Origin: an uncultured bacterium
GTDB taxonomy: Bacteria; Joyebacterota; Joyebacteria; Joyebacterales; Joyebacteraceae
Length of the DNA stretch: 29,472 bases
Direction: 5' to 3'
Assembly: GCA_964521425.1 (NCBI GenBank)
Contig: CAZFRO010000029.1
Span: 1-29,472, forward strand
Positions within the stretch are counted from its first letter, which is position 1. Each line of letters starts with the position of its first letter. A program made the position numbers and the translations under genes. Under the pieces are notes generated by a model. It did no database searches, was not told where the DNA came from, and saw nothing but the letters and a program-made list of their open reading frames with translations. Shown piece after piece: positions 14,662-28,224 of this stretch.

Positions 14662-15000
14662 CTACCGACCCGTGTCTTCCTTGTACCTGTCGACGACCGT
14701 GCCCTCCCAGAGCCTTACACCGGCGATGTGCGCGCCGCGGGCAAGGGCGTGGCTTCCGGTCGGTGACGTCCACAGCACGAAGACCGCGGCCAGGAGCGCC
14801 TTGATCCCCATTGCGTTCCATCCTGAGTGCACAAGCACGCCGATGAGGATGAGTAGCGTGCCAAGTGTGACGCACTTCGTCGCGGCCTGAAGCCTGTTGT
14901 AGACATCGGGAAGTCGAATCAACCCAAGCGCGCCGACAAGATCGAACGCGACGCCGATGGAGATAAGGATGATGGGTACGAGTCCTATCTGACTACTCAT
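14662..15000 (-). CDS. mrpG: Na+/H+ antiporter subunit G (MrpG/MnhG)
   Basis: The hallmark RLPDVYNRLQAATKCVTLG is present, with three TM helices. It overlaps mrpF by 8 nt. Confidence 0.82.
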   Translation of the reverse strand: MSSQIGLVPIILISIGVAFDLVGALGLIRLPDVYNRLQAATKCVTLGTLLILIGVLVHSGWNAMGIKALLAAVFVLWTSPTGSHALARGAHIAGVRLWEGTVVDRYKEDTGR

Positions 15001-15247
15001 CGAATCCCCTCCCCTCCAGGTACTTCGCCAGAGCCAGTGTTCCGATGAATGCCAGTAGAGCCCAGGCGATGGCGATGTTGAGATAGAAGTCCTGACCGGT
15101 CACGATTCCAAAGACGCCGCAGATCCCCACCACCATCACGCCGATCGTGTCTATCGCAACCGCCCTGTCAGGGGGCGTCGGTCCCCTTGCCACCCTGTAG
15201 AGGCACATGAAGCACCCCATGATCAGCAGAAACAGGATTACGGTCAT
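14993..15247 (-). CDS. mrpF: Na+/H+ antiporter subunit F (MrpF/MnhF)
   Basis: 84 aa. Motif GPTPPDRAVAIDT with two or three TM helices. Its start shares one nucleotide with the mrpE stop. Confidence 0.78.
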   Translation of the reverse strand: MTVILFLLIMGCFMCLYRVARGPTPPDRAVAIDTIGVMVVGICGVFGIVTGQDFYLNIAIAWALLAFIGTLALAKYLEGRGFDE

Positions 15248-15750
15248 CAGTCGAACACCCTCCTCAAAGTGACCTCAAAGCGACCCGCGATGTCCCTGGT
15301 GATCGCCTCAGCGTCCTCGATGTTCTCATGGACGTTGATCCAGTGAACATAGAGCCAGTCATCGATGATATCTATGGTCAGTGTGCCAGGCGTGAGCGTG
15401 ATCGAGTTCGCGAGAAACGCCTTGCCTTCGTCACTCTTCAGTATCGTCTTGACCTTGACGATTCCCGGTCTGATGGGCAGGTTCGGATGCAGCACCCGGT
15501 AGAGAACGTCGAAGTTCGCCACGATAATCCAGAGCATGAGCGAGAGCAGATGCATGATCGCCCAGAACCACCGCACCGGACTGAAGAGTCTCTCCGCGTT
15601 CTTCGGCAGAAGCCCCGACAGGCCCAGCGCAAACAGTACCGCCAGTACCGCCCCGACAACCACCCCCTGCCAGTCGAGAGACCAGGTCAGGAGTAGCCAC
15701 AGGGCAAAGTAGATTGTGAGATCCAGGAGCCTTCGCTTCAGTGTGTCCAT
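15247..15750 (-). CDS. mrpE: Na+/H+ antiporter subunit E (MrpE/MnhE)
   Basis: MrpE-like TM N-terminus and conserved C-terminal region. The ATG at 15750 has AAGGAG 9 nt upstream and lies just after the mrpD stop (15767-15769). The track start at 15801 would overlap mrpD by 35 nt. Confidence 0.75.
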   Translation of the reverse strand: MDTLKRRLLDLTIYFALWLLLTWSLDWQGVVVGAVLAVLFALGLSGLLPKNAERLFSPVRWFWAIMHLLSLMLWIIVANFDVLYRVLHPNLPIRPGIVKVKTILKSDEGKAFLANSITLTPGTLTIDIIDDWLYVHWINVHENIEDAEAITRDIAGRFEVTLRRVFD

Positions 15751-15766
15751 CAGTGCTCCTTGCCCC

Positions 15767-17302: not shown

Positions 17303-17650
17303 CTATCCCCTCAGCTTGCTGATCACGGACATGTCAAAGGTGCCGTGCTTCTCGTAGAGCCGAATGCACATTGCCACCATGAGAGACAGGACACCCAGGC
17401 CGATGACGATAGACGTCAGAACCAGAGCCTGTGTAAGGGGGTCCACAAAACGCTCAAGGGTGGCAACCGGCATGTTCGGCTCGATGATCGGCGCCACACC
17501 GCCGTTCTTGTACCCGACGATGATGAGATACAGATTCACGGCGTAGTCCATGATGACTATCCCGAGAATCTTCTTCACGATGTTCTTCTTGGCCACGAGA
17601 CAGTAGAGCCCCATTGTCAGAAGAACTATGCACATGAAATAGACGGTCAT
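17303..17650 (-). CDS. mrpC: MrpC/MnhC (NuoK-like) subunit
   Basis: 115 aa with three TM helices. It overlaps mrpB by 4 nt. Confidence 0.78.
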   Translation of the reverse strand: MTVYFMCIVLLTMGLYCLVAKKNIVKKILGIVIMDYAVNLYLIIVGYKNGGVAPIIEPNMPVATLERFVDPLTQALVLTSIVIGLGVLSLMVAMCIRLYEKHGTFDMSVISKLRG

Positions 17651-18102
17651 GCCAGTTCATCCTCGATCATGGCCCTGAAGGAACGCCTACGGAAGACCGC
17701 CAGCGCCGAGAAAACCAGGAAGAGCGAGCTACCGACCTTGAACGCGATAGCAATGTTGAGCGGCAGGATCATCCCCGAACTTAAGAGCCGGAACGCTTCC
17801 CCCCTGCCGAAGGTGTTCATGAAGAAGAAACCGACGGTCACACCGAACCAGCCGATGAGCAGGAACATGAGAGCTCCTGCGCTGTCGAGAATGTGGGCCG
17901 TCTTCTCCGGCATCTTGGAGAAGGCCACTTCCTTCCCGTGTGCAAGCATCAGAAGGATGAAGGCGCATGCGATGATCACGCCTCCGGCGAATCCGCCGCC
18001 GGGTGTCAGGTGGCCATACAGCACGATATACGTGCCGAAGACTATGATGAAACCAACAACGAAGTCCGTGATCGTCTTGACTATGAGAGTCATACCGTTC
18101 AT
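17647..18102 (-). CDS. mrpB: MrpB/MnhB subunit
   Basis: The hallmark HLTPGGGFAGG is present, with four TM helices. It overlaps the upstream ORF by 4 nt. Confidence 0.8.
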   Translation of the reverse strand: MNGMTLIVKTITDFVVGFIIVFGTYIVLYGHLTPGGGFAGGVIIACAFILLMLAHGKEVAFSKMPEKTAHILDSAGALMFLLIGWFGVTVGFFFMNTFGRGEAFRLLSSGMILPLNIAIAFKVGSSLFLVFSALAVFRRRSFRAMIEDELA

Positions 18103-18656
18103 GCGGCGACCACCTCCTCTTCCTTCCTCTTCCCGTCTTTTCTCAGGAGCGCCAGGGCTCCGATAATCGACGTGAAGAGCACTGTCGCCTCGCCCATCGT
18201 GTCGTATGCCCGGAAGTCAAGGATCACCGACGATACGATGTTGGCGCAGTACGTCGCGGGAAGCCCGGTGTGTACGTACACCCTCGACACGCGCATGAGT
18301 GGCTCGCCAAACTCGGGGAAGCCCCTGCCCCCAAAGATCATCGCCCCAAACCCGAGGACCAGCCCGAAGAAGATCAGTGATGTCACGACCGCCAGAGTAT
18401 CTCGATGCGATTCGACCGCCGTGTTGTCGAGAAGGATCGTTCCCCTGATCAGGATGATCAGTACGAGAACCTCAACAACCAGCTGTGTGATCGCGATGTC
18501 GGGCGCTCCAAGAAAGAGGAACGCGACAGACAGCGCGAAGCCGACCGCAGCCACCGAGATCACAGCGGACAGGAGGTTCCTGGTCTCAATGGCCACGATC
18601 GATCCCACGATCATGAACACCAGGAGTGCATAGAGCTGAGGAGTGATGTTTTCCAT
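18099..18656 (-). CDS. MnhB-domain (DUF4040, MrpA C-terminal-like / MbhD-like) membrane protein
   Basis: GAPDIAITQLVVEVL matches the MnhB/DUF4040 signature that normally forms the C-terminus of MrpA. Here it is a separate ORF. Confidence 0.68.
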   Translation of the reverse strand: MENITPQLYALLVFMIVGSIVAIETRNLLSAVISVAAVGFALSVAFLFLGAPDIAITQLVVEVLVLIILIRGTILLDNTAVESHRDTLAVVTSLIFFGLVLGFGAMIFGGRGFPEFGEPLMRVSRVYVHTGLPATYCANIVSSVILDFRAYDTMGEATVLFTSIIGALALLRKDGKRKEEEVVAA

Positions 18657-18710: not shown

Positions 18711-20600
18711 CTACCTGCCGGCCATTTCCTTTAGCAGTGCCGTCAGTACCGCGAATACTATCGCACCGAGACCTATGACGCACCACGCGAGGTACGTCGA
18801 CAGGACGCCGCTGTGTAGAGACTTCAGCGCCTTGACGAAGACATCGCCGACCCGGCCGCCAACCACGTGGACGTCGAATACCTTCTGCTCGGCGTTCATG
18901 TAGAAGCCCTTGAACGGGATCATTTCCTTGATCGTGTTGTAGAAGCCCGTCCCGGTCACGTGCATCGCATCCATGCGCTCCGGCGGTCTCGTACCGCCGA
19001 TGAAGACATGGCCTACCCGCCTCTTCGTGAGTTTCCCCACCACTACCACGCCCAGCCCGACAATGATGCCCACGATGATAAGCCCGGTCGCACTTGCCGG
19101 ATCCCAATACCCGGCGCCGAGCGTGATCGCGCCTGCCGGCGTTGTGTCGACTGCCCCATGGACGATTGGATTGATGAACCTGTCCAGCGGGAACTTCGCC
19201 CAGACACCGAAGAGAACACAGAGGCCCGCGAATACGATCAACGGGATCCGAATGAACCAGGACGCCTCTCTCACGTGACTAAGTGCGCTCGGCTGCTGCC
19301 CAAGGAAGGCCGAGTAGAGAACCTTAACAAACGACGCGAGCGTCAGCGCACTTCCGAAGAGGGCGACGACAATGAAGATCCAGTACGCGCTGAAGCCTCT
19401 GCCACCCAGCTCGACAATGCCGGTGTAGATCATCCACTTCGAGACGAAGCCGTTGAACGGAGGCACACCGGAAATCGCGAACGCCGCGATTGCCATGGTG
19501 ATGAACGTGACAGGCATCGCCTTGGCGAGACCTCCCAGTTTTGAGATCTCCGTCGTTCCCGCCTGCTTCTCAATAGACCCGGCCCCAAGGAACAGACACG
19601 ACTTGTAGATGGCATGGTTGAGCATGTGGAAGATGCCGCCGGCGATGGCTATCGGGATTCCGGTGCCGATACCTAGCACCATGTACCCGACCTGGCTGAT
19701 CGCGTGGTACGAGAGCAGCACCTTGAGGTCGTGCTGGATGAGCGCCATCATAACGGCCGCGAATATCGTCACCGCACCTATGATCATAAGGACGAGCGAG
19801 AGACCTGGCCCTATGCTGAAGATGTCGAGACTGATTCTCGCAAGAAGATAGATTCCCAGAAGCTTGTCGATCGATGCCGGGAGCAGTGCCATCACCGGCG
19901 TCGGTGCGCCCTTGGCCGCAGCGGGAATCCACGTGTGAAACGGCATTGCGCCGGCCTTGGTGATCGCACCGATCATCAGAAGCAGATAGATGAACGTGGA
20001 CATCGGGGCGGCGACAAAGATCCTGAGATGGCTCATTGAGAGCGTGCCGTACTTGACCCAGATCAGAGCGACGGCAAGGAAGAGCGCGGCATCGGAGAAA
20101 CCGAGCATAAGGAAGCTCTTCGATGCACCATCGGAGGCCTCAGCACGCTTCTTGCCCAGGTTGATATACAGGTAGAGGATCGCGGTCAGCGCCTCCCAGA
20201 AGATAAGGAGGATGAGCAGACTGTTCGAGAGCACCGCACCGCAACTGGCCGCCACCGTCCAGAGCAGATAGGCGTAGTAACGCCTCCCATCGTGCTCCTT
20301 GTCGAGCCAGCCGATCGAGTAGATCCCCACACCTAACCCAAACAGACCCACAAACACGATGACAAAGGCACTGAAGTGGTTGAGCAGCAGGTCGAACTGA
20401 ACGTCAAGGCTGCCAAACACCACCCAGTCCTTCGTGAACGAGAGCGGCCACTGTCCGAACAGCTGGAGCGCAGCAACCAACGCCCACGCGGTGCCCGCAA
20501 TTGCGATCACCTCCCTGACGCCCTTGACCCGTTTCGGTACGAAGAGACAGAGCAGGCCGGCGACGGCAGGGATGATTATGGGAACCAGAATCTGTGGCAT
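18711..20600 (-). CDS. mrpA: MrpA/NuoL-like antiporter subunit (HyfB/MbhH-like)
   Basis: 629 aa, polytopic, with a NuoL-family core (GWLDKEHDG..., PTPVMALL..., HAISQVGYM...). It lacks the MrpB-like C-terminal fusion. Confidence 0.85.
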   Translation of the reverse strand: MPQILVPIIIPAVAGLLCLFVPKRVKGVREVIAIAGTAWALVAALQLFGQWPLSFTKDWVVFGSLDVQFDLLLNHFSAFVIVFVGLFGLGVGIYSIGWLDKEHDGRRYYAYLLWTVAASCGAVLSNSLLILLIFWEALTAILYLYINLGKKRAEASDGASKSFLMLGFSDAALFLAVALIWVKYGTLSMSHLRIFVAAPMSTFIYLLLMIGAITKAGAMPFHTWIPAAAKGAPTPVMALLPASIDKLLGIYLLARISLDIFSIGPGLSLVLMIIGAVTIFAAVMMALIQHDLKVLLSYHAISQVGYMVLGIGTGIPIAIAGGIFHMLNHAIYKSCLFLGAGSIEKQAGTTEISKLGGLAKAMPVTFITMAIAAFAISGVPPFNGFVSKWMIYTGIVELGGRGFSAYWIFIVVALFGSALTLASFVKVLYSAFLGQQPSALSHVREASWFIRIPLIVFAGLCVLFGVWAKFPLDRFINPIVHGAVDTTPAGAITLGAGYWDPASATGLIIVGIIVGLGVVVVGKLTKRRVGHVFIGGTRPPERMDAMHVTGTGFYNTIKEMIPFKGFYMNAEQKVFDVHVVGGRVGDVFVKALKSLHSGVLSTYLAWCVIGLGAIVFAVLTALLKEMAGR

Positions 20601-20618: not shown

Positions 20619-21791
20619 CTAGAGATTCTTCTTAAGCCATTCGGTCTTCTGGTGACTCAGCTTGATAAGATCATGTCCGTTCGCGATTCTCTTGCCGCCT
20701 GGGTCGATCACAGCGATGCGCTCCGTGCAGCTGTAGCACGGGTCGATGATCGCGAAAATGACCGTGGCGTCTGAGATGCTCTCGCCCTTCACGCGCGGTC
20801 GATAGGACGGGATGTTCACGAAGGTTGGCGCCCTCATCTTATGCCGCTCGGGCATGTTCGTGCCGTTCGAGCGGATGAAGTGGAAGCACTCGCCGCGCGG
20901 GGCTTCAACGTGACCGATTCCCTCTCCCCGCGGGATCTCGCGAACCTCACTCCTGATCTCCCCGCCGGGCAGCTTCTTGATGCACTGCTGGACGATCTTG
21001 ACCGACTCCAATATCTCGAGAAGCCTCACCACAGCCACAGCCAGCATATCGCCATCGGGCTGGGTGATGACCTTCCAGTCAACCTCGTCATACGCGCCGT
21101 ACGGTTCGTCTCTGCGGACGTCGATGTCAACGCCTGAACCTCGCGCGGTCGGACCAAGAACGCCGTACGCGACCGCGTCCTCATTGGTCAGGATGCCGAC
21201 GCCCTTCAAGCGTCCCAATATGACCGGGTCGTTGAGAATGGCGCCGATGAGCATGTTGGTCTTCTCCACAAACTCATCCATTGCCTTCAGTACTGGTGGC
21301 CAGACATCATCAGGAACCTCGCGCCTGACACCACCTGGGCAATACCACGCGTAGTTGTTCCTGTTTCCGGTGATTGCCTCGAGCGCGTCGAGGATCGGCT
21401 CCCGGTACTTCCAGCCCCACATGAAGACGGTCCAGTAGCCGATGATGTGTCCGGCAAGTCCTACCCAGAGCATGTGGCTGTGCAGCCGCTCCAGCTCGTG
21501 GACGATGGTTCTCAGATAGCGCGCACGATCAGGAACGACGATCCCGCCGATATCTTCCATCGCAAGGGTCGCTGCCCAGCTGTGTGAAGCCGAGCAGATA
21601 CCGCAGATTCGCTCAACCAGGAACACGTCCTGATCGAACGTCTTCTCCTCGGCCAGAAGCTCCATCCCTCTGTGGATGCGCCCGAGATCCATGTCGGCGC
21701 CCACCACAGTCTCCCCCTCGACCTGCAGAGTGATATACTCCGGCTCCTCGAGGAGAGGATGGAATGGCCCAATGGGAATGGTTGTGCTCAT
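20619..21791 (-). CDS. Group 4 [NiFe]-hydrogenase large subunit (NuoD/HycE C-terminal/MbhL-like)
   Basis: N-terminal NiFe motif ERICGICSASHSW (RxCGxCxxxH) and C-terminal DPCYSCTER (DPCxxCxxR). A roughly 30-aa extension follows, consistent with maturation-protease processing. Confidence 0.9.
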   Translation of the reverse strand: MSTTIPIGPFHPLLEEPEYITLQVEGETVVGADMDLGRIHRGMELLAEEKTFDQDVFLVERICGICSASHSWAATLAMEDIGGIVVPDRARYLRTIVHELERLHSHMLWVGLAGHIIGYWTVFMWGWKYREPILDALEAITGNRNNYAWYCPGGVRREVPDDVWPPVLKAMDEFVEKTNMLIGAILNDPVILGRLKGVGILTNEDAVAYGVLGPTARGSGVDIDVRRDEPYGAYDEVDWKVITQPDGDMLAVAVVRLLEILESVKIVQQCIKKLPGGEIRSEVREIPRGEGIGHVEAPRGECFHFIRSNGTNMPERHKMRAPTFVNIPSYRPRVKGESISDATVIFAIIDPCYSCTERIAVIDPGGKRIANGHDLIKLSHQKTEWLKKNL

Positions 21792-22220
21792 TTATTCGTC
21801 TCTCCTCATTGCATGGAAGTCTGCCGGTCTGTCATGGGAGGAGAGTATCTTGCGCGGATCCGGATGGTCGACGAACTCAACGCCCAAGAAATCGAAAATC
21901 TCTCGCTCGATGAAATCTGCAGCCGGGTAGTACTTCGTAAGCGCTTCTATTTTTGGGAATGGCTTGTCGAGTGTTGTTCTGATGTTTACAACCGTGCCCT
22001 CACGATCAATTGCGAAGTGGTACAGGAGCTCCACCCCCGTTGACCGATCGCTCCCCGTCGCCGTCGTAAGCCTCCCCCCCTCCACCTCGTACATGTGCCG
22101 TGTCACAGCAATCCAGTCGTCATTCGAGACCGCGACATACGCACGCTTGTGGTTGTGTTCGTAGATCTCCACGCGGTCGCCGAACTTCGCCTTCAAGTTC
22201 TCAAGAACCTGTTTGCTCAT
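21792..22220 (-). CDS. NuoC-like subunit (30 kDa family; HycE N-terminal domain equivalent, MbhK-like)
   Basis: NuoC-fold sequence. The ATG at 22220 has GGGGAG 10 nt upstream; the track start at 22259 has no RBS. Its stop abuts the large-subunit ATG with no gap. Confidence 0.78.
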   Translation of the reverse strand: MSKQVLENLKAKFGDRVEIYEHNHKRAYVAVSNDDWIAVTRHMYEVEGGRLTTATGSDRSTGVELLYHFAIDREGTVVNIRTTLDKPFPKIEALTKYYPAADFIEREIFDFLGVEFVDHPDPRKILSSHDRPADFHAMRRDE

Positions 22221-22299
22221 CGTCTTGTCACTCCCCGAGCCCGGGCCTTTGGGCGGCAACCCCGCACCGCTTCCTTCACCACCGGCTCATCCTGTTCAG

Positions 22300-22713
22300 C
22301 TAGAGCGTCCCCAAGAGCTTCACGACCGCGCCGATGATTGCCTCGGGTCGCGGAGGGCACCCTGGGACATACGCGGCGACCGGAACATGCTTGTCGACAG
22401 GTCCCGCGAAGTTGTACCCGTCCTTGAAGATCCCGCCCGTGCACGCACACGCCCCGATAGCTATAACCACAGCCGGCTGGGGCGCCTGCTCGTATGCTTC
22501 GATCAGATCGGGCACGACCTTCCGCGGCACGCTGCCCGAGACCAGAAGCACATCGGCGTGCTTCAAGCTGCCGACGAGCTTCATCCCGAAGCGCTCCACG
22601 TCGTACTTCGGGCACAGACAATCGAGAACCTCGATGTCACAGTTGTTGCACGCGCCCGCGTTCAGATGGAACAGCCACAACGACTTCTTGAATCCCCACT
22701 TGGTTGCGTCCAT
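22300..22713 (-). CDS. [NiFe]-hydrogenase small subunit (NuoB/HycG/MbhJ-like)
   Basis: Proximal cluster Cys ligands GACNNCDIEV, GACACTGG and VPGCPPRPE. Confidence 0.85.
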   Translation of the reverse strand: MDATKWGFKKSLWLFHLNAGACNNCDIEVLDCLCPKYDVERFGMKLVGSLKHADVLLVSGSVPRKVVPDLIEAYEQAPQPAVVIAIGACACTGGIFKDGYNFAGPVDKHVPVAAYVPGCPPRPEAIIGAVVKLLGTL

Positions 22714-22735: not shown

Positions 22736-23674
22736 CTAGAATCCGAGGATCGCGAGAATCATGCCGACGACCGCTATCACGGTGACAGGTCCCCAGAAGA
22801 ATCTGACGGCCTGGTCGATCCTGACCCTCGGAGTTGTGTTCTTGATGAGAACAATGATCACAATGATTATCACGTACTTCACGATCGTGTAGAGAATGCC
22901 CCACCCCGAGAGAACCAGTCCACCCCAGAAGACCGTGATAAGGAAGATGGGCAGCGTGAAGAGCATCATGGCCTGCTGAAGCTTGATGACGGCAAGTGCC
23001 GCGCCCGAATACTCTATGTGCGTCCCGTCCATCAGCTCAGTTTCAGCCTCCGGGATGTCGAACGGCGGGAACGTGAGCTTCGCCTGAACAACCAGAATGC
23101 AGACGATGAATGCCAGAATGCAGGAGGCGTTGCCAAGAAGCACACCGTTGGCCGCCTGGTACTGGAGAATGCCGTCAAGTCTCAGTGTCATCGGGGACAC
23201 CTTGGTGACGGCCGTGAAGATCGCGATGACAAACGGAAGCTCGTACGCAAGGACGAGCTTCATTTCGCGGCTGGCGCCGATGCTGGCAAGCGGATTACTC
23301 GATGCGGAAGCGCCTAGAATGATCCCGAGCGAGGGAATCGTCAGAAGGTAGATGACACCGATGAGATCTCCGACGAAGCCCGTGCCGTGCATGTTGGTGA
23401 GCCAGAGCATCGTGGACACAACACCAACGGCGGCAAGTCCGGCCATTGGTGCGAATAGGAATCCCGCCCGCCTCGCTCCAGCCGGTATGATTATCTCCTT
23501 GCCCATCAACTTGAGGACGTCGGCGAACGGCTGGTACCACGGCGGGCCGACCCTCCACTGGACCAGCGCACTCACCTTGCGGTCAATCCACTGCGTCACG
23601 AGCCCTATCACCGCCGTGAAGAGCAGACCTGGGAAGATGAGAAAGCTCAGAACCAACCCGAGTGTTGAAGCCAT
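22736..23674 (-). CDS. NuoH-like membrane subunit (HycD/EchB/MbhM-like)
   Basis: 312 aa with eight TM helices. It carries the conserved NuoH-family charged loop regions. Confidence 0.82.
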   Translation of the reverse strand: MASTLGLVLSFLIFPGLLFTAVIGLVTQWIDRKVSALVQWRVGPPWYQPFADVLKLMGKEIIIPAGARRAGFLFAPMAGLAAVGVVSTMLWLTNMHGTGFVGDLIGVIYLLTIPSLGIILGASASSNPLASIGASREMKLVLAYELPFVIAIFTAVTKVSPMTLRLDGILQYQAANGVLLGNASCILAFIVCILVVQAKLTFPPFDIPEAETELMDGTHIEYSGAALAVIKLQQAMMLFTLPIFLITVFWGGLVLSGWGILYTIVKYVIIIVIIVLIKNTTPRVRIDQAVRFFWGPVTVIAVVGMILAILGF

Positions 23675-23728: not shown

Positions 23729-24247
23729 TTACCTCGGCCTCCTCACCGTCTTCATCACACTACGGGCTCCGCGCATCGGAACGCCCTTCTGAGCTTCCAC
23801 GTCGCTGATGTCCTCGAAGGTCCGAGCCCCCGAGACGCACGTCCCGGCACACATCGAATCCTTCGCCTCGAGAGTTCGCCAGTTGCAGAGATCACACTTG
23901 TCGAGCGTGTGCCGCGTCTTCAGGAGATCGATCGCCCCGAAGGGACACGCCTGCGCGCACGACGTGCAACCACTGCACTTGATGTTGCTGCGAATGACCA
24001 GACCGTCATCGCGACGCTGAATCGCCTCCTGCGGGCACGCCGCTTCACAGAGCGGCTGCTCACAGTGTCGGCAGTTCATCTGCAGCACAATGTTCGTCAT
24101 GATAGGCGAAGCCTCAAGCTGGTTCTGCATGTTGTGCGAGTAGAAGCATGCCGCGAGGCAGCTCTTGCAGCTGATGCAGCGTCCGTAGTCGAGGACGTTT
24201 CTGTTGTTCATCCAGCTCTCCTGCTTTATCGCGCTCGCGCGGTCCAC
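23729..24247 (-). CDS. HycB-like poly-ferredoxin (four [4Fe-4S] motifs)
   Basis: Four Cys clusters: CISCKSCLAAC, CRHCEQPLCEAACP, CSGCTSCAQACP and CDLCN...C. Confidence 0.78.
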   Translation of the reverse strand: MDRASAIKQESWMNNRNVLDYGRCISCKSCLAACFYSHNMQNQLEASPIMTNIVLQMNCRHCEQPLCEAACPQEAIQRRDDGLVIRSNIKCSGCTSCAQACPFGAIDLLKTRHTLDKCDLCNWRTLEAKDSMCAGTCVSGARTFEDISDVEAQKGVPMRGARSVMKTVRRPR

Positions 24248-24270: not shown

Positions 24271-25959
24271 TTAGTCCTCCGGCACAATCTTCACGTCGGA
24301 GGAGGTTACATCAAACCACTTGGTGCCGGCGTTCAGGGTCCAGACCATGAGCCCTCGCGCGTCAGGTACATATGAGGGAATGGCCACGAGCCCTGGTGGC
24401 ATCCTGTCCGTCACAGTTGTTATGAGGCGAGTCTCGCCTCTCCCTGTCGAGATGGCCACGGTCGAGCCCTGCTCGATGCCGGCCTCATCCGCCGCCTCTT
24501 CAGAAAGCCACATCTCGCAGTATGGATTCTGCGCCTGCGGGAAACTCATACGTCCCGTCAGCGTTCCGTCCCAGCGATGCAGCGGACTGATGCTCTCGAC
24601 AAGCTCGAGCCCACCACCGGGCGCGCTCGCAAGCTTGCCAAGCGCCGCGTTCACGTCCACGGCCAGCTCTGAGTGCGTGGCGGTTGCCCCGCCCGCCGGA
24701 ATCCCAATCCCCATCTCGGCCGCGATGTCCGCCATCATCATCCCGACAGACCTCGCGTCGCCCTGTGGCTTCGCGCACGTATCGAGCGATGTTGAGAAGC
24801 CAAACGACGGTGAGTAGCTTCCGTTGAATTCCGTCCAGACTGCCTGCGGCAGCCCGACATCGCTGTGCTTCGATGTGTCGTTCTCAAAGATCGCGGAAGC
24901 CGCGAGAAACTCAAGGCTCTCCAGATCCTCCGGACTAACTGCCCCCGGATAGAGCTGCACAAGATCCGGCCCTAACACCAGGAGTCCCTTGATTCTCTTG
25001 TCGGCAACACCAGACAGGATCTCCGCTGCGGTCCGGTTGGAACTGACGCGCTCGTAAGCGCCTATAGCATTCCCACCTCTAAAGAGAGGCGCGTACTTGC
25101 CGCCCGCGGCAGATGCGAGCTTCGCTGCGAGAAGACCCGTAAGATAACCGGATGTAGAGTCGCCGAGTCTCGAAGAGACGACGACAACGACCTTCTGGGA
25201 GTTGCGGAGCCCCGCAGCAATCCTCTCGATTCCAGCCTTCGACATTCCGCCCGCGGCTGCCGCCGCCTCAACATCCACGGAAGGTGAACCTTGTACGTTC
25301 ATGGCCTTGAGCAGAGCGGCCAGAATGAGGGGTTCGCTTCCGGCCGGCGGCTCGATGTGCAGATCGGCGAACCAGTCGGTGTTGGAACGGTAAGGATTGA
25401 TAGTGATGATCTGATTCGACCTGCTCTTGTGTCTTGCCTCAATGATGCGCTTCGACACGGTCGGGTGCCCCCAGAACACATCCCCGATCAGGACAAAGCA
25501 GTCCGCTTCGTCGAGATCCTCCGGGGTTGCATCGCCGGCTCCACCGCCCGTGAGCAAGCCGTAGTCGTTCCCGTCGTAGGCAACGCCTATGCTCGTGGTG
25601 CCAAGAACGTGTGTGGCGAAACCGACGGCCGCATCGTAGTCCTCGTTCGAGAGCTCTGTCCCGACGATGACACCGAGCGCATCGGCTCCATGGTTCGTCT
25701 TTATCTCGTCCATCTTCCCGGCCATCTTCGTCACCGCGACAGACCACGGCACTCTCCGCCGGTTGACGGTAGCCGCGAGGAATCGCTTCGGGTGAAGAAG
25801 GATTTCGAGGTTGTAGTGTCCTCTGGCGCAGAGCGACCCGCGGGACAGAGGCGACTCCTCATCGAAGTCTACCCTCACGGGCACTCCTTGGTCGACCTCC
25901 ACCGCGAACCCGCACTGGAGGGAGCAGATGAGACAAGACGCCTTCCTGATCTCTGGCAT
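24271..25959 (-). CDS. Molybdopterin-oxidoreductase family subunit, FdhF-like but non-canonical
   Basis: N-terminal 4Fe-4S ligands C9, C12, C16 and C44 align with FdhF C8, C11, C15 and C42. A C-terminal MGD-cap-like domain is present. The region aligning to FdhF CCARVU(Sec140)HGP reads GVAYDGNDYG, so no Sec or Cys is there. There is no in-frame TGA. RBS CAGGGGAAG. Confidence 0.7.
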   Translation of the reverse strand: MPEIRKASCLICSLQCGFAVEVDQGVPVRVDFDEESPLSRGSLCARGHYNLEILLHPKRFLAATVNRRRVPWSVAVTKMAGKMDEIKTNHGADALGVIVGTELSNEDYDAAVGFATHVLGTTSIGVAYDGNDYGLLTGGGAGDATPEDLDEADCFVLIGDVFWGHPTVSKRIIEARHKSRSNQIITINPYRSNTDWFADLHIEPPAGSEPLILAALLKAMNVQGSPSVDVEAAAAAGGMSKAGIERIAAGLRNSQKVVVVVSSRLGDSTSGYLTGLLAAKLASAAGGKYAPLFRGGNAIGAYERVSSNRTAAEILSGVADKRIKGLLVLGPDLVQLYPGAVSPEDLESLEFLAASAIFENDTSKHSDVGLPQAVWTEFNGSYSPSFGFSTSLDTCAKPQGDARSVGMMMADIAAEMGIGIPAGGATATHSELAVDVNAALGKLASAPGGGLELVESISPLHRWDGTLTGRMSFPQAQNPYCEMWLSEEAADEAGIEQGSTVAISTGRGETRLITTVTDRMPPGLVAIPSYVPDARGLMVWTLNAGTKWFDVTSSDVKIVPED

Positions 25960-25984: not shown

Positions 25985-26830
25985 TTAGAATGGATCCTCG
26001 AACGAGGCGACCTGTGCCGCCGTCATGACGGGTCCGTCCTTGCAGATGTAGAGCTCGCCCATCATGCAGTGCCCGCACTTACCTAGCCCACAGCTCATGT
26101 TGCGCTCCATCGAGTGGTAGATGTTCTCCGGCTTGAAGCCCTTCTCGAGAAGCGCGATGTTCACGAACTTAAGCATGATCGGGGGCCCACAAACACAGGC
26201 GACGGCCGTCTCCGCGCTGAACGGCAACCCTTCGACATCGACGGTGGTGAGAAGAGGCAGATCGTCAAGAAGCACCGTTACTACACCCACCTTGCCGGTC
26301 CAGTTCTCTGCCGGCTCGTCGATCGTCAGCAACACCTCAGTGTTCTTCATCTTCTCCCACTCGCGGAGAAGGTCCTTGAAGATAACGTCTTCGGGCGTCC
26401 TCGCTCCGTAGCGGATCGACACCTTCTTGTAGCGATCGATGTCGTCGAAGAGTGCCAAGATGAGCGACCGAAGCGGGGCCAGTCCAACGCCGCCGCCCAT
26501 TATCAGAATCTCTTTGCCGTCGAAGTCGGCCATGTTGTAGCCGTTGCCGTACGGCCCACGGATCCCGACGGTGTCTCCCACCTTCATCTTTGTGAGCGCG
26601 TGCGTCACCGTGCCGACGTCCATGATCGTGATCTCCATCGTCTCTGTGACGTTGGGGTTCGACGACGGCGTGAATGGAGCCTCTCCAACTCCCGGCACCG
26701 TAAGCTCAACGAACTGACCCGCCGCAAAGGTAAGTGGCTCCTTTGGACGGAATCTGTAGGTTGTGATGTTCGGGGACTCCTGCTTGATATCCTCGATCAC
26801 ACTCTCTATTGGCCTGTAGATGTTCTTCAT
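25985..26830 (-). CDS. FAD/NAD(P)-binding [2Fe-2S] oxidoreductase subunit (HydG/AsrB/PyrK-like)
   Basis: FNR-like fold. The C-terminal CGLGKCGHCMMGELYIC is a 2Fe-2S motif. The start is reassigned to the ATG at 26830, which forms an ATGA overlap with the upstream stop. The track start at 26923 would overlap the upstream gene by 97 nt. Confidence 0.78.
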   Translation of the reverse strand: MKNIYRPIESVIEDIKQESPNITTYRFRPKEPLTFAAGQFVELTVPGVGEAPFTPSSNPNVTETMEITIMDVGTVTHALTKMKVGDTVGIRGPYGNGYNMADFDGKEILIMGGGVGLAPLRSLILALFDDIDRYKKVSIRYGARTPEDVIFKDLLREWEKMKNTEVLLTIDEPAENWTGKVGVVTVLLDDLPLLTTVDVEGLPFSAETAVACVCGPPIMLKFVNIALLEKGFKPENIYHSMERNMSCGLGKCGHCMMGELYICKDGPVMTAAQVASFEDPF

Positions 26831-27894
26831 GCCTTTGCCATCTCCGTGACGACGTGCTTGATAGATTCCCTCATATCGATCCGGCCCATGCAGACATCGA
26901 TGCATCTGCCGCAGCCGGTGCACGAGACCGCGCCGTACCTGTCACGTGAATACTCCAACTTGCAGCGAATACGATTCTCCAGGCGCTGTGGCAGGTTCGG
27001 CCTCGAGTTGCCGCCTCCACCGGTCCTGGCATAGCCGATTGACAGACAGGTGTCCCAGTTCCGTGTTCGCTCGTAGCCGCCCTCCGCCCTCTGGTCCACA
27101 AGCAGGAAACACGTACACGACGGACAGGTGCGATTGCAGGCTCCGCAGCCGACGCAGTTCTGCGTGACGTATGCCCACGCGGCCTCGTCGCTACCCAGCT
27201 CGTGTTTGTCGTGGGCGACGTCGACTGCGTACTGAGCGTTCTGACGCTCGACGGCCGCCGTCACCGAGGCTCGGCTTCTGCTCCGCTCATCCTTGTGATT
27301 CGAGTCGACCGGAGTGAAGAGGTCGTCGCTCCCATCGAGGAGCTTCTCCCCCTTGTCCGAGCCGGTCGTGAGGATGTACCCGGACTCAAGCGGAGAGATG
27401 TTGAGATCGAATCCTTCGTCGACATACGGCTTCCCACCCATCATCGTGCAGAAACAGGTCTCCTTCGACGCGGTACAGTCGACGGAGACGAGGACGGTGT
27501 TCTGCCGCTTCTCAATGTAGAACGGGTCGTCGTATTCCTCTGTGAAGTGCTTCGTGCTCCAGTAGACCTTGTCGAATTTCTCGAGACCATCAAGGTCACA
27601 GGCCCGCGGTCCTACGACGATCGTCGCCGGCGCCTCCACGCTCGCCTCGGGATCGCTGCTCGGATACTTCGCGACCACCTCGCGCGCGTAGAAGAGGAAC
27701 GTCTTGGGGGACTGTGCTGGGCACGCCCCGTGGAGCTCAAGTTTGTCGGGGACCTCTTCCTTCACCAGCTCGTAGTCGGGTGTCTCCGAGTTGTTCATGA
27801 TGTCGAACGTGACCGGGACGTAGACCCTCTGGTTCTTGGCCCAGCGCCCGATGAGCTTGAGGAGGTTCTCTCGTCCGATGAAGACTTCTTTCAT
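26827..27894 (-). CDS. Iron-sulfur subunit (HydB/AsrA-like)
   Basis: Motifs CVGCGACNRTCPSC and CTGCGRCIDVC plus additional Cys. The start is reassigned to the ATG at 27894 (MKEVFIG...), which has GAGAGGG upstream. The upstream 45 codons of the track ORF (GTG at 28029) use AT-rich codons (AAA, GAA, CAA, AGA) that are atypical for this genome. Confidence 0.72.
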   Translation of the reverse strand: MKEVFIGRENLLKLIGRWAKNQRVYVPVTFDIMNNSETPDYELVKEEVPDKLELHGACPAQSPKTFLFYAREVVAKYPSSDPEASVEAPATIVVGPRACDLDGLEKFDKVYWSTKHFTEEYDDPFYIEKRQNTVLVSVDCTASKETCFCTMMGGKPYVDEGFDLNISPLESGYILTTGSDKGEKLLDGSDDLFTPVDSNHKDERSRSRASVTAAVERQNAQYAVDVAHDKHELGSDEAAWAYVTQNCVGCGACNRTCPSCTCFLLVDQRAEGGYERTRNWDTCLSIGYARTGGGGNSRPNLPQRLENRIRCKLEYSRDRYGAVSCTGCGRCIDVCMGRIDMRESIKHVVTEMAKA

Positions 27895-28224
27895 CCTGGC
27901 AAGCCCTCTCGCTTGGAGTTCTTTCGTTTTATCCGGCCGGCTCGTACGAGCCGTACGACCTTCCTGAGCGTAAATAAACCCCACATCGCTATTCGCTAGG
28001 AAAGCGATCCCGGGGTCTTTGTGTGCCACAGAGGTGGCTGGAACGCACCAGTCGTTGCCAGCAAGTAACAGTCAGTCCTTTCAACTGATTGTTGCTCGCG
28101 GGGCGAAGCCTGTGCGCTCTCCGCCCGCGCCACGGAACAAAAACGGGCCCGTATCGAGCCCTTATAGCCCAAGAGAGTCTAGCGGCCGGTGCGCGAACTG
28201 TCAAGCGCAAAAGGGGATAATCAG
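27895..28224 (-). promoter_or_regulatory. Leader/promoter region of the hydrogenase-Mrp operon, containing a 16-bp perfect palindrome and an upstream inverted repeat
   Basis: CGGCTCGTACGAGCCG (27938-27953) is a perfect palindrome 44 nt upstream of the ATG, with the direct repeat TCGTACG x2. ATCGCT-N12-AGCGAT lies at 27985-28008. An AT-rich patch taaataaa lies at 27971-27978 in an otherwise GC-rich context. Confidence 0.4.

What the first reader, a model, noticed from the sequence alone, without database searches (positions are those of the whole stretch)
25985..27894. HydB/HydG (AsrA/AsrB)-like NAD(P)H module as the first two genes of a membrane hydrogenase operon
A 4Fe-4S subunit and an FNR-like FAD/NAD(P) [2Fe-2S] subunit are normally partners of cytoplasmic sulfhydrogenase or of anaerobic sulfite reductase. 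Here they sit at the head of a membrane-bound, Mrp-linked hydrogenase operon. That implies NAD(P)H-linked H2 metabolism coupled to ion translocation, which is an uncommon wiring. The two genes overlap as ATGA, so they are translationally coupled.
Basis: partly seen in the sequence, partly recalled or inferred. Interest (0 to 1): 0.55.

Follow-up and report, generated by a model that had tools for sequence, protein, structure and literature searches.

The report
NAD(P)H module on membrane hydrogenase
Two genes resembling the NAD(P)H-handling half of a soluble hydrogenase do head a 17-gene operon for an ion-pumping membrane [NiFe] hydrogenase; this arrangement recurs in many uncultivated anaerobic bacterial phyla, has been noted once in print as "enigmatic", and has never been tested biochemically.

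Summary
Window 27894..26827 and 26830..25985 (minus strand) encode a 355-aa HydB/AsrA-like poly-[4Fe-4S] protein and a 281-aa HydG/AsrB-like FAD/NAD(P)/[2Fe-2S] protein. They share an ATGA overlap. They are the first genes of a tightly packed 17-gene operon, downstream of a conserved promoter and leader.

One is a non-canonical molybdopterin-oxidoreductase-like protein in which the Mo-ligand Cys/Sec-His pair is replaced by invariant Ala-Tyr. The other is a HycB/CooF-like four-cluster ferredoxin.

The core is a true group 4 [NiFe] hydrogenase with a full Mrp module.

Among the 80 closest HydB-like genes in species-representative genomes, 51 of the 53 with enough flanking DNA show the same order: hydB, hydG, (MopB), hycB, nuoH, nuoB, nuoC, nuoD, nuoL, mrp. 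These come from more than 15 phyla. The NADH sensor gene rex sits directly upstream in 21 of 66.

The wiring is therefore functional and widespread rather than rare. It matches the "enigmatic" Saganbacteria hydrogenase of Matheus Carnevali et al. 2019.

Most likely function: a reversible NAD(P)H:H+ oxidoreductase coupled to the ion gradient. Novelty: new member of a genomically noted but uncharacterised kind. Interest 0.5.

The parts
27895..28209 (-). Promoter and about 300-nt conserved leader. It contains TTGACA-N17-TAGACT at 28204..28176, hairpin 1 at 28161..28145, a nearly invariant hairpin at about 28098..28054, and a GC-rich hairpin with a U-rich tail at about 28006..27969. The RBS GAGAGGG lies 8-14 nt before the ATG.
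   Evidence: The promoter scan found it. It is conserved in 5-9 Eisenbacteria relatives. RNAalifold predicted 44 pairs, 11 of them with compensatory changes. No Rfam family matched.
26827..27894 (-). hydB/asrA-like poly-[4Fe-4S] subunit, 355 aa.
   Evidence: Pfam Fer4_22 and NCBIfam HydB/ShyB/AsrA matches, all below the equivalog cut-offs. 9nez_B at 6.8e-40. Fifteen Cys are invariant in alignment A1.
25985..26830 (-). hydG/asrB-like FAD/NAD(P)-binding [2Fe-2S] subunit, 281 aa. It shares an ATGA overlap with hydB-like.
   Evidence: FAD_binding_6, NAD_binding_1 and DHODB_Fe-S_bind domains. AsrB 218 bits and HydG 178 bits. 9nez_C at 8.4e-50. Cofactor motifs are conserved in 76 homologues.
24271..25959 (-). 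Non-canonical MopB (formate-dehydrogenase-like) subunit, 562 aa. The N-terminal [4Fe-4S] Cys motif is retained. The Mo-ligand Cys/Sec-His pair is replaced by Ala127-Tyr128.
   Evidence: Pfam Molybdop_Fe4S4, Molybdopterin and Molydop_binding domains; TIGR01591 scores 125 bits against a cut-off of 666. Single-sequence and profile alignments to solved FDHs cover the catalytic region. Family alignments support the substitutions.
23729..24247 (-). HycB/CooF/DmsB-like ferredoxin with four Cys motifs. The likely start is ATG 24211, giving 160 aa as in relatives.
   Evidence: Pfam Fer4_11 at 3.7e-17. The sequence was read. Relatives are 160 aa.
22736..23674 (-). NuoH/HycD-like membrane subunit.
   Evidence: Pfam NADHdh at 7.2e-62.
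22300..22713 (-). NuoB/HycG-like hydrogenase small subunit, with CxxC...C...CPP.
   Evidence: Pfam Oxidored_q6 at 6.4e-31. The sequence was read.
21792..22259 (-). NuoC-like subunit.
   Evidence: Pfam Complex1_30kDa at 2e-20.
20619..21791 (-). Group 4 [NiFe] hydrogenase large subunit. It carries RICGICSASH and DPCYSCTER motifs plus a 32-aa C-terminal extension.
   Evidence: Pfam Complex1_49kDa and NiFeSe_Hases. Best solved relatives are MbhL 6cfw_L at 3.8e-77 and HycE 7z0s_E at 2.5e-70. The motifs are present in 54 of 54 relatives.
18711..20600 (-). NuoL/HyfB/MrpA-like antiporter subunit, 629 aa.
   Evidence: Pfam Proton_antipo_M at 1.4e-58.
18099..18656 (-). MbhD/MbhE-like subunit (MrpA C-terminal / MrpB type).
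   Evidence: Pfam MbhD and MbhE.
17647..18102 (-). MnhB-like subunit.
   Evidence: Pfam MnhB at 1.9e-24.
17303..17650 (-). NuoK/MrpC-like subunit.
   Evidence: Pfam Oxidored_q2 at 3.4e-23.
15767..17299 (-). MrpD/NuoN-like antiporter subunit, 510 aa.
   Evidence: Pfam Proton_antipo_M at 8.8e-64.
15247..15801 (-). MrpE-like subunit.
   Evidence: Pfam MNHE at 2.9e-36.
14993..15247 (-). MrpF-like subunit.
   Evidence: Pfam MrpF_PhaF at 1.4e-20.
14662..15000 (-). MrpG-like subunit.
   Evidence: Pfam PhaG_MnhG_YufB at 5.2e-27.
14029..14634 (-). HycF/NuoI-like 2x[4Fe-4S] subunit with an extra C-terminal CxxC...CxxC segment. It is the last gene of the operon.
   Evidence: NCBIfam 'formate hydrogenlyase complex iron-sulfur subunit' at 1.1e-30. 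Pfam Fer4 families.

Best explanation
The operon encodes one membrane complex: a group 4 [NiFe] hydrogenase of formate-hydrogenlyase/Mbh architecture. Its cytoplasmic electron-entry or electron-exit module is a sulfhydrogenase-type beta-gamma pair rather than ferredoxin alone or a formate dehydrogenase.

**Proposed electron path (inferred)**
1. NAD(P)H binds the HydG-like subunit.
2. Electrons pass to its FAD.
3. They pass to its [2Fe-2S] cluster.
4. They pass through the [4Fe-4S] clusters of the HydB-like subunit.
5. They may pass through the single [4Fe-4S] cluster of the MopB-like subunit.
6. They pass through the four clusters of the HycB-like subunit.
7. They pass through the HycF/NuoI-like subunit.
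8. They pass through the NuoB-like small subunit.
9. They reach the [NiFe] site.

**Energetics (inferred).** NAD(P)H/H2 lies close to equilibrium, with NAD(P)H to H2 slightly uphill at standard state. The membrane arm comprises NuoH-like, two antiporter-like subunits and MrpB-G. It most likely couples the reaction to the Na+/H+ gradient in either direction. The gradient would be spent to dispose of NADH as H2 during fermentation. That direction is suggested by rex upstream in other phyla. Alternatively, ions would be pumped when H2 reduces NAD(P)+.

**Shown versus inferred.** Shown here: gene identities, cofactor motifs, operon structure and conservation of synteny. Inferred: assembly into one complex, NAD(P)H as substrate, direction, and the coupling ion.
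For: - **Homology to the NADPH-handling subunits.** Both proteins match the NADPH-handling beta and gamma subunits of solved sulfhydrogenase I over their full length (9nez_B at 6.8e-40, 9nez_C at 8.4e-50). All Cys ligands are invariant.
- **Cofactor motifs in HydG-likes.** GEAPFTPSS (FAD), GGGVGLAPLRS (NAD(P)) and CGxGKCGHC..C ([2Fe-2S]) are conserved in 76 HydG-likes.
- **Operon structure.** There are 17 co-directional genes with overlaps or gaps of at most about 80 nt. They follow one conserved promoter and leader.
- **Synteny.**
  - HydG-like is adjacent to HydB-like in 70 of 70 loci.
  - NuoH+NuoB+NuoD follow downstream on the same strand in 51 of 53 loci.
  - Mrp-specific subunits are present in 38 of 45 loci.
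  - These loci span more than 15 phyla. Contexts L001-L007 agree.
- **A true hydrogenase.** The [NiFe] Cys motifs are present in 54 of 54 relatives, so these are hydrogenases and not Mbx/Ehr.
- **Distinct clade.** The group-4-linked HydB-likes form a clade separate from SHI beta and from a true hydBGDA operon, L060.
- **rex.** rex lies directly upstream on the same strand in 21 of 66 loci, and also in L004-L007.
- **Published proposals of the same role.** AsrAB-like genes in Saganbacteria were proposed to play a role similar to NuoEF (PMC6349859). An archaeal analogue has a SudA-like NADPH module in place of FdhA (PMC3035292).
Against: - There is no biochemical evidence for any member of this family.
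- Neither protein reaches any NCBIfam equivalog cut-off. Substrate specificity is therefore extrapolated from family-level homology.
- Published MAG studies call Cloacimonadota, Omnitrophota and Auribacterota Mbh-Mrp hydrogenases 'group 4g' and assume ferredoxin as donor. The HycB-like or HycF-like subunits could accept ferredoxin directly, as MbhN does.
- NAD(P)H to H2 is endergonic at standard conditions, so an H2-evolving role needs low pH2 or gradient input.
- The window itself has no rex gene and no Rex box.
- The role of the MopB-like subunit is unresolved. It keeps many MGD-type motifs.
Confidence: 0.6

Rival explanations
1. This is a ferredoxin-coupled Mbh-type hydrogenase, the default reading for HydDB 'group 4g'. 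Ferredoxin would donate at the HycB-like or HycF-like subunits. The HydBG-like pair would be only a side branch. For example, it could let the complex act as a ferredoxin:NAD(P)+ oxidoreductase, balancing Fd, NAD(P)H and H2.
For: - The closest solved large subunit is MbhL of the ferredoxin-dependent P. furiosus Mbh (6cfw_L at 3.8e-77).
- The literature assigns related Mrp-linked clusters to 4g and assumes ferredoxin.
- The polyferredoxin-like HycB subunit offers surface clusters.
Against: - The HydBG-like pair is the invariant head of the operon, in 70 of 70 and 51 of 53 loci. It is translationally coupled and under purifying selection for its FAD and NAD(P) motifs.
- P. furiosus Mbh needs no such module.
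- The frequent rex linkage points to NADH.
Confidence: 0.15
2. This is a substrate:proton lyase centred on the MopB-like subunit. It would be a formate-hydrogenlyase-type (group 4b-like) complex that oxidises formate or an unknown substrate at a Mo/W centre. HydBG would act as a second acceptor making NAD(P)H.
For: - The operon order Fdh-like, HycB-like, hydrogenase, Mrp mirrors Fdh-Mfh-Mnh/FHL. HycF-like and HycE-like features are present.
- In the Eisenbacteria MopB family (57-91% identity) many MGD-type motifs are invariant (GxxxxGHP, NP.R, E..G.Y).
- From my own knowledge, not tested here: arsenite oxidase works with Ala at the ligand position.
Against: - The Cys/Sec-His catalytic pair is replaced by invariant Ala127-Tyr128. 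No Cys occurs in that segment in 25 family members.
- TIGR01591 scores 125 bits against a cut-off of 666.
- The subunit is absent from 39 of 59 related operons. In Margulisiibacteriota it is truncated to 379-498 aa, and the L004 copy has no Molydop_binding hit on record.
- There is no formate-channel gene in the window.
Confidence: 0.15
3. The first four genes (HydB-like, HydG-like, MopB-like, HycB-like) form a separate soluble NAD(P)-dependent oxidoreductase. It would merely be co-transcribed with the membrane hydrogenase.
For: - Stand-alone hydBG-like pairs exist, followed by unrelated genes, in L049 and L077.
Against: - Stand-alone pairs are only 2 of 53 loci.
- In two thirds of operons there is no MopB. 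HydBG would then have no catalytic partner other than the hydrogenase.
- In FHL, HycB is the connector to the hydrogenase (established knowledge; structure 7z0s).
Confidence: 0.07
4. This is a sulfur, polysulfide or sulfite reductase function. The beta-gamma pair would act as the 'sulfur reductase' half, as once proposed for sulfhydrogenase, or as AsrAB of anaerobic sulfite reductase.
For: - The best NCBIfam hit of the second protein is AsrB (218 bits).
- Source databases name relatives 'sulfhydrogenase subunit beta (sulfur reductase)'.
Against: - No AsrC or siroheme gene was found among the window ORFs I scanned with Pfam or NCBIfam, or in the related loci.
- The AsrA and AsrB cut-offs are not reached (113 against 323; 218 against 288.6).
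Confidence: 0.03

Closest known systems
'Enigmatic' Mrp-Mbh-type group 4 [NiFe] hydrogenase region of Saganbacteria RX5A (Matheus Carnevali et al. 2019, PMC6349859, main text and Supplementary Note 5)
   Same: - Same gene set: asrA-like, asrB-like, an unclassifiable molybdopterin oxidoreductase with a single [4Fe-4S] domain, cooF-like, hydrogenase subunits and Mrp antiporter-like subunits.
- A WOR-1/Saganbacteria genome locus, L011, has the same order. Identities to the window are HydB 37%, HydG 46%, MopB 28% and NuoD 58%.
   Different: - The window is from Ca. Eisenbacteria. Its proteins form their own tight clade, 68-97% identical within the clade and at most 42% identical outside it.
- It has a lineage-specific conserved leader.
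- It has no rex gene.
- Neither the Saganbacteria region nor this one has been characterised.
P. furiosus soluble sulfhydrogenase I (group 3b; HydB, HydG, HydD, HydA; PDB 9nez)
   Same: - The beta and gamma subunits are the closest solved relatives of the two proteins.
- The Cys ligands match, and so do the FAD/NAD(P)/[2Fe-2S] motifs.
   Different: - The partner here is a membrane group 4 hydrogenase with an Mrp module, not the cytoplasmic delta-alpha dimer.
- NCBIfam equivalog cut-offs are missed by a wide margin (141 against 750; 178 against 650).
- A true hydBGDA operon, L060, and SHI beta fall outside the clade.
Formate hydrogenlyase: E. coli FHL-1 (group 4a, 7z0s) and Thermococcus Fdh-Mfh-Mnh (group 4b)
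   Same: - The order MopB subunit, HycB-like, HycD/G/E/F-like core is shared.
- The large subunit has a HycE-like C-terminal extension after DPCYSCTER.
- A full Mrp module is present, as in group 4b.
   Different: - The MopB subunit lacks the catalytic Cys/Sec-His pair.
- There is no formate channel gene.
- An NAD(P)H-type flavoprotein pair has been added at the front.
'Dehydrogenase-linked MBX' operons of Desulfurococcaceae (T. aggregans Tagg_0050-0059, S. marinus; PMC3035292)
   Same: - An FHL-like membrane complex in which the formate dehydrogenase catalytic subunit is replaced by an NAD(P)H-binding flavoprotein.
- It was proposed to oxidise NADPH with protons or sulfur as acceptor.
   Different: - The flavoprotein there is SudA/GltD-like, not HydBG/AsrAB-like.
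- Those operons are archaeal.
- They were not compared by sequence here.
Respiratory complex I N-module (NuoE, NuoF, NuoG)
   Same: - The logic is shared. An NADH-oxidising flavoprotein plus a MopB-derived Fe-S subunit feeds the NuoI/NuoB/NuoD-type chain on an Mrp-derived membrane arm.
   Different: - The flavoprotein fold differs: FNR/PyrK-like with FAD, against NuoF with FMN.
- The acceptor is H+ at a [NiFe] site, not quinone.
- The MopB-like protein is much closer to FDHs (8e-38) than to NuoG (2e-10).

Membership tests
Group 3b sulfhydrogenase beta/gamma (HydB/HydG, ShyB/ShyC) | Full-length homology to the beta and gamma subunits, with conserved Fe-S Cys ligands and FAD/NAD(P) motifs. | tested here: met
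   9nez_B at 6.8e-40 over residues 6-347. 9nez_C at 8.4e-50 over residues 23-276. Invariant Cys. Conserved motifs.
Group 3b sulfhydrogenase beta/gamma (HydB/HydG, ShyB/ShyC) | Score at or above the NCBIfam equivalog cut-offs. | tested here: not met
   Bits against cut-off: HydB 141 / 750; ShyB 139.6 / 690; HydG 178 / 650; ShyC 175.5 / 600.
Group 3b sulfhydrogenase beta/gamma (HydB/HydG, ShyB/ShyC) | Encoded with the cytoplasmic 3b small and large subunits (hydD, hydA). | tested here: not met
   The downstream genes are MopB-like, HycB-like and NuoH/B/C/D-like. The large subunit is of the Complex1_49kDa type and closest to MbhL and HycE. Contrast L060, which is hydB, hydG, a 239-aa gene and a 426-aa gene.
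Anaerobic sulfite reductase AsrABC | AsrA and AsrB equivalog scores. | tested here: not met
   AsrA 113.4 against 323. AsrB 218 against 288.6.
Anaerobic sulfite reductase AsrABC | Adjacent asrC (siroheme/[4Fe-4S] catalytic subunit). | tested here: not met
   None of the window ORFs I scanned gave a sulfite-reductase catalytic-subunit domain. Only window ORFs were scanned with Pfam.
PyrK (dihydroorotate dehydrogenase B electron-transfer subunit) | Equivalog score and an adjacent pyrD. | tested here: not met
   NF000796 scores 162.5 against 224. There is no pyrD in the operon.
Group 4 membrane-bound [NiFe] hydrogenase, Mrp-linked | Large subunit with N-terminal and C-terminal CxxC Ni-Fe ligands. 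| tested here: met
   RICGICSASH and DPCYSCTER are present. The C-terminal motif is in 54 of 54 relatives and the N-terminal motif in 51 of 54.
Group 4 membrane-bound [NiFe] hydrogenase, Mrp-linked | NuoB-like, NuoC-like, NuoH-like and NuoI-like subunits, plus antiporter-like and MrpB-G-type subunits, in one operon. | tested here: met
   Pfam and NCBIfam hits for all of them.
Group 4 membrane-bound [NiFe] hydrogenase, Mrp-linked | HydDB subgroup assignment (4b, 4d or 4g). | not testable with these tools
   No HydDB classifier is available. Published MAG studies classify Cloacimonadota, Omnitrophota and Auribacterota Mbh-Mrp hydrogenases as 4g. I did not show that those are the same clusters as my loci.
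Group 4 membrane-bound [NiFe] hydrogenase, Mrp-linked | H2 evolution or uptake coupled to ion translocation. | not testable with these tools
   This needs membranes or vesicles.
Formate hydrogenlyase / formate-respiring group 4a/4b | Catalytic FdhH/FdhA with a Sec/Cys Mo(W) ligand followed by His. | tested here: not met
   Ala127-Tyr128 align to C/U-H in 7qv7_S, 7bkb_D, 9t1s_L and 9wxb_B. Ala127 is invariant and Tyr128 is conserved in at least 90% of 20 clade members. No Cys is conserved at this position in the 25 MopB-likes examined across phyla. TIGR01591 scores 125 against 666.
Formate hydrogenlyase / formate-respiring group 4a/4b | HycB-like connector, HycF-like subunit, and a HycE-type C-terminal extension. 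| tested here: met
   Fer4_11 four-cluster protein. PRK12387 'formate hydrogenlyase complex iron-sulfur subunit' at 1.1e-30. HycE 7z0s_E at 2.5e-70. Thirty-two residues follow DPCYSCTER.
AsrAB-like/MopB/CooF-like Mrp-Mbh hydrogenase cluster (Saganbacteria type, PMC6349859) | Gene content and order: asrA-like, asrB-like, unclassifiable MopB with one [4Fe-4S] domain, cooF-like, group 4 hydrogenase, Mrp. | tested here: met
   The window operon matches the published description. It also matches the WOR-1 locus L011.

The most novel reading that the evidence does not exclude
The complex is a widespread, uncharacterised functional analogue of complex I for anaerobes, made of:
- an FNR-type flavoprotein module;
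- an FDH-derived subunit;
- an FHL-type [NiFe] core;
- an Mrp arm.

It would let fermenters re-oxidise NADH to H2 by spending the Na+/H+ gradient. That would be a chemiosmotic alternative to flavin-based electron confurcation. Run in reverse, it would conserve energy from H2:NAD(P)+ reduction.

In addition, the MopB-like subunit has Ala at the ligand position. It may still hold a Mo/W cofactor and add a second, unknown substrate.

In Eisenbacteria the operon would be gated by a new leader RNA.
Probability: 0.3. Interest if true: 0.75.

Novelty: new member of a known kind. Interest (0 to 1): 0.5.

Why it matters
Metabolic reconstructions of many uncultivated anaerobic phyla routinely label this hydrogenase 'ferredoxin-coupled Mbh, group 4g'. 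Examples are Omnitrophota, Planctomycetota, Cloacimonadota, Latescibacterota and Margulisiibacteriota.

If the conserved HydBG-like module makes it NAD(P)H-linked, those energy and redox budgets need revising. They would contain a gradient-coupled NADH:H2 step. That changes how these organisms are thought to dispose of glycolytic NADH or to take up H2.

The complex is also a third independent example of an NAD(P)H flavoprotein grafted onto a group 4 hydrogenase or complex I scaffold. The other two are complex I NuoEFG and the SudA-linked archaeal complexes. In about a third of the operons, including this one, the graft comes together with an FDH-derived subunit, as in complex I. This bears on how complex I was assembled in evolution.

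Tried and rejected
- **Formate hydrogenlyase reading.** Rejected as the main explanation. The catalytic Cys/Sec-His pair is absent, and the MopB subunit is missing from 39 of 59 related operons.
- **'Dead scaffold' reading of MopB.** I first thought MopB was a dead scaffold. I softened this after alignment A5 showed many MGD-type motifs invariant within the Eisenbacteria clade.
- **Rex box.** A search of the window with TTGTGAANNNNTTCACAA at up to 3 mismatches gave 0 hits.
- **Rfam.** Rfam on the leader and on the whole window found no family. The only hit was a meaningless Prion_pknot match at E = 7.
- **Metagenome scan for the leader motif.** The 16-base pattern was too unspecific.
- **Link to Wood-Ljungdahl genes.** One Aerophobetes locus, L003, suggested it. 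It does not generalise: L003 is the only locus with the acs cluster, and only two others show a single isolated hit, out of 87 loci.
- **Literature.** Searches for a biochemical characterisation found none. I used terms for an NADH-dependent membrane [NiFe] hydrogenase, HydBG, asrA/asrB with a group 4 hydrogenase, group 4g with NADH, and Eisenbacteria. Most subscription-journal papers are not in the library.
- **NADH versus NADPH.** I did not attempt to call specificity from the beta2-loop sequence (YGARTPED). I know of no reliable rule for this subfamily.
- **Call errors.** Alignment A3 contains a mis-oriented L157 row and was replaced by A4.

Full report
**Observation**

All relevant genes are on the minus strand.
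- The ORF list and the sequence show a 355-aa gene (ATG 27894, stop 26829-26827) and a 281-aa gene (ATG 26830, stop 25987-25985).
- A GAGAGGG Shine-Dalgarno-like run lies 8-14 nt before the first ATG.

**Identity of the two proteins**

Protein 1:
- It carries Pfam Fer4_22 (2.5e-23).
- It matches NCBIfam HydB (4.2e-41), ShyB (1.2e-40) and AsrA (1.3e-32) over its whole length.
- Its only strong solved relative is the beta subunit of P. furiosus sulfhydrogenase I (9nez_B, 6.8e-40, residues 6-347).

Protein 2:
- It has FAD_binding_6, NAD_binding_1 and the PyrK-type [2Fe-2S] domain.
- It matches AsrB (1.2e-64), 'cytochrome-c3 hydrogenase gamma' (3.3e-62), HydG (1.9e-52), ShyC and PyrK.
- Its best solved relative is SHI gamma (9nez_C, 8.4e-50).

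No equivalog cut-off is reached (for example HydB 141 bits against 750, and AsrB 218 against 288.6). These are family-level relatives, not orthologues, of the 3b or Asr subunits.

Conservation across relatives:
- In an alignment of 18 diverse relatives, 15 Cys of protein 1 are invariant.
- In 76 HydG-likes the FAD motif GEAPFTPSS, the nucleotide motif GGGVGLAPLRS and the CGxGKCGHC..C cluster motif are conserved.

**The operon**

Downstream on the same strand, with overlaps or gaps of at most about 80 nt, come:
1. A 562-aa MopB (formate-dehydrogenase-like) protein.
2. A four-cluster HycB/CooF-like ferredoxin.
3. NuoH-like, NuoB-like and NuoC-like subunits.
4. A [NiFe] large subunit with RICGICSASH and DPCYSCTER plus a 32-residue tail.
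5. A 629-aa NuoL-like antiporter subunit.
6. MbhD/E-like, MnhB-like and NuoK/MrpC-like subunits.
7. A 510-aa MrpD-like subunit, then MrpE, MrpF and MrpG.
8. A HycF/NuoI-like subunit.

The closest solved large subunits are MbhL (6cfw_L, 3.8e-77) and HycE (7z0s_E, 2.5e-70).

They matter, because they give the operon the layout of a formate-hydrogenlyase / Fdh-Mfh-Mnh complex with an extra flavoprotein pair in front.

Upstream is a Band_7 gene, followed by a 330-nt spacer.

**Is the link real or accidental?**

The closest homologues of protein 1 form a tight clade of about 35 clusters (68-97% identity) from Ca. Eisenbacteria. Identity then drops to 42% or less.

Contexts fetched for distant relatives show the same order:
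- Two Eisenbacteria loci have an identical layout, including the upstream Band_7 and gyrBA genes.
- An Aerophobetes locus lacks the MopB gene.
- A Margulisiibacteriota locus has a shorter 488-aa MopB and rex upstream.
- A Latescibacteria locus has no MopB and has rex upstream.

I then scanned one genome per GTDB species with a profile of the family and kept the 80 best loci. I mapped all 17 window proteins onto them by tblastn. The results:
- The HydG-like gene follows HydB-like in 70 of 70 loci with enough DNA.
- NuoH+NuoB+NuoD follow on the same strand in 51 of 53 loci.
- Mrp-specific subunits are present in 38 of 45 loci.
- A MopB-like gene lies between HydG and HycB in 20 of 59 loci.

The two exceptions, L049 and L077, are stand-alone pairs followed by unrelated genes.

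The titles of these loci name:
- Eisenbacteria, WOR-1/Saganbacteria, Margulisiibacteriota, Latescibacterota and Omnitrophota;
- Auribacterota, Planctomycetota, Calditrichota, Krumholzibacteria and Elusimicrobia;
- Cloacimonadota, Ignavibacteria, Marinimicrobia, Thermotogae, Dehalococcoidia, Actinomycetota and others.

Caveat: these are the 80 most similar of at least 476 relatives. The result therefore says that this subfamily is dedicated to group 4 hydrogenases. It does not say that all HydB/AsrA-like proteins are.

A rough NJ tree places SHI beta and a genuine hydBGDA operon from a Thermoprotei archaeon (L060) outside the group-4-linked clade.

The large subunits keep their Ni-Fe Cys motifs (54 of 54 C-terminal, 51 of 54 N-terminal). 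These are hydrogenases, not Mbx/Ehr-type relatives.

An exhaustive phmmer search finds 486 50%-identity clusters at E <= 1e-30 and 1666 at E <= 1e-10 for the wider superfamily.

**The MopB-like subunit**

- It keeps the N-terminal CxxCxxxC...C [4Fe-4S] motif.
- Single-sequence and profile alignments to four solved formate dehydrogenases place Ala127-Tyr128 where those enzymes have the Mo/W ligand Cys/Sec followed by His.
- Ala127 is invariant and Tyr128 is conserved in at least 90% of 20 clade members.
- No Cys is conserved at this position in the 25 MopB-likes examined from different phyla.
- Outside the Eisenbacteria clade (57-91% identity, about 560 aa), identity falls to 25% or less against true FDHs.
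- In Margulisiibacteriota the protein is only 379-498 aa, and the L004 copy has no Molydop_binding hit on record.

It is therefore not a canonical formate dehydrogenase, and it is dispensable for the family.

I do not call it inactive. Within the clade several MGD-type motifs are invariant (G..F.GHP, NP.R, E..G.Y). From my own knowledge, arsenite oxidase functions with Ala at the ligand position. MopB-containing operons are scattered and basal in the HydB tree. That pattern fits ancestral presence with repeated loss, but the tree is unbootstrapped NJ.

**Regulatory context**

rex:
- rex, the NADH/NAD+ sensor, lies directly upstream on the same strand in 21 of 66 genome loci with enough upstream DNA.
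- It also does in L004-L007.
- The window has neither rex nor a Rex box.

The leader. The 300 nt before the ATG are strikingly conserved among Eisenbacteria whose proteins are only 68-80% identical. They contain:
- A TTGACA-N17-TAGACT promoter.
- A first hairpin.
- A nearly invariant hairpin: CCGCGAGCAACAAUCAGUUGAAAGGACUGACUGUUACUUGCUGG.
- A GC-rich hairpin with compensatory changes and a U-rich tail.

RNAalifold predicts 44 pairs in this leader, 11 of them with double changes. Rfam has no match. This looks like an attenuator or riboswitch-like leader. I did not resolve what it senses.

**Mechanism**

The best-supported reading is a single complex.
- The HydG-like flavoprotein would exchange hydride with NAD(P)(H).
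- Electrons would pass through HydB-like, optionally the MopB [4Fe-4S] cluster, then HycB-like, HycF-like and NuoB-like subunits to the [NiFe] site.
- NAD(P)H to H2 is about 90 mV uphill at standard state and near equilibrium at low H2 (established thermodynamics).
- The Mrp-type arm would therefore plausibly either spend the ion gradient to make H2 from NADH, or pump ions during H2-driven NAD(P)+ reduction.
- The rex linkage favours an NADH-disposal role in fermenters.

Assembly, substrate, direction and coupling ion are all inferences.

**Comparison with what is known**

- Matheus Carnevali et al. 2019 described this gene set in Saganbacteria: asrA-like, asrB-like, an unclassifiable molybdopterin protein with one [4Fe-4S] domain, cooF-like, hydrogenase and Mrp. 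They called it an 'enigmatic' group 4 hydrogenase with relatives in Zixibacteria and Omnitrophica. They suggested the AsrAB-like proteins play a role like NuoEF.
- The T. aggregans genome paper proposed NADPH-linked FHL-like complexes in which fdhA is replaced by a sudA-like gene.
- HydDB lists group 4g as 'ferredoxin-coupled (putative), undetermined role'.
- MAG studies of Cloacimonadota, Omnitrophota and Auribacterota assume ferredoxin for their 4g Mbh-Mrp clusters and do not mention a HydBG-like module.
- A paper on the lineage that includes one of my loci (Ca. Effluviviacota/Eisenbacteria) notes only 'group 4 hydrogenases and mrp'.
- I found no biochemical study.

**Verdict**

- Two corrections apply: two genes were overlooked, and the wiring is common in genomes rather than rare.
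- It is a new (Eisenbacteria) member of a kind that has been noticed genomically but never characterised.
- Interest is moderate, at 0.5. The finding is not unprecedented. It points at a widespread enzyme whose commonly assumed electron donor is probably wrong or incomplete, and it comes with an unassigned MopB variant and an undescribed leader element.

Noticed in passing
window 27895..28209 (minus strand): A conserved leader of about 300 nt lies in front of the operon. It holds a TTGACA-N17-TAGACT promoter, hairpin 1, a nearly invariant hairpin (CCGCGAGCAACAAUCAGUUGAAAGGACUGACUGUUACUUGCUGG) and a GC-rich hairpin with compensatory changes and a U-rich tail. It is conserved in 9 distinct Eisenbacteria leaders, and no Rfam family matches. 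It is a candidate attenuator or riboswitch-like element.
   Followed up: partly
window 24271..25959 (minus strand): The MopB-family protein has invariant Ala127-Tyr128 where formate dehydrogenases have the Cys/Sec-His pair. An Asp a few residues later (D132) is conserved across phyla. Several MGD-type motifs are still invariant within the clade. Whether it binds Mo or W is open.
   Followed up: partly
L019, L022, L024-L026, L028, L032, L033, L035-L038, L042-L045, L053, L056, L057, L064, L078; also L004-L007: A rex gene (redox-sensing repressor) sits 20-300 nt upstream of the hydB-like gene on the same strand. This holds in 21 of 66 genome loci, mostly Planctomycetota, Omnitrophota and Latescibacterota, but not in Eisenbacteria.
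   Followed up: yes
window 14029..14634 (minus strand): The HycF/NuoI-like subunit has a C-terminal extension with CESCGG...CPSCRR. These four extra Cys look like a zinc ribbon or an additional cluster.
   Followed up: no
window 20619..21791 (minus strand): The large subunit ends with DPCYSCTER followed by 32 residues. That is a HycE-type tail, which normally needs a HycI-type endopeptidase. No hyp or hycI maturation genes are in the 29-kb window.
   Followed up: no
window 8675..13348 and 13345..13812 (minus strand): Directly downstream of the operon is a 1557-aa secreted protein. It has Peptidase_C25 (gingipain-like), FG-GAP, beta-helix/NosD-like and FlgD_ig domains, plus a weak Por_Secre_tail (T9SS sorting) hit below Pfam's cut-off. 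It is preceded by an overlapping 155-aa ORF with no Pfam hit. This is consistent with an FCB-group organism.
   Followed up: partly
L003 1..2834: In the Aerophobetes locus the operon directly follows CODH/ACS genes. The CdhC/AcsB gene there carries an intein with a LAGLIDADG endonuclease domain, according to precomputed Pfam. The adjacency to Wood-Ljungdahl genes does not generalise.
   Followed up: partly
L049 9812..11746; L077 9842..11731: Two relatives have stand-alone hydB/hydG-like pairs with no hydrogenase downstream. They are followed by PAS-histidine kinase and LuxR genes, or by transporters. Their partner is unknown.
   Followed up: partly
window 27900..27915: The RBS of the hydB-like gene sits in the loop of a small conserved inverted repeat, CAAGC-GAGAGG-GCTTG. 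This could occlude or present the Shine-Dalgarno sequence.
   Followed up: no
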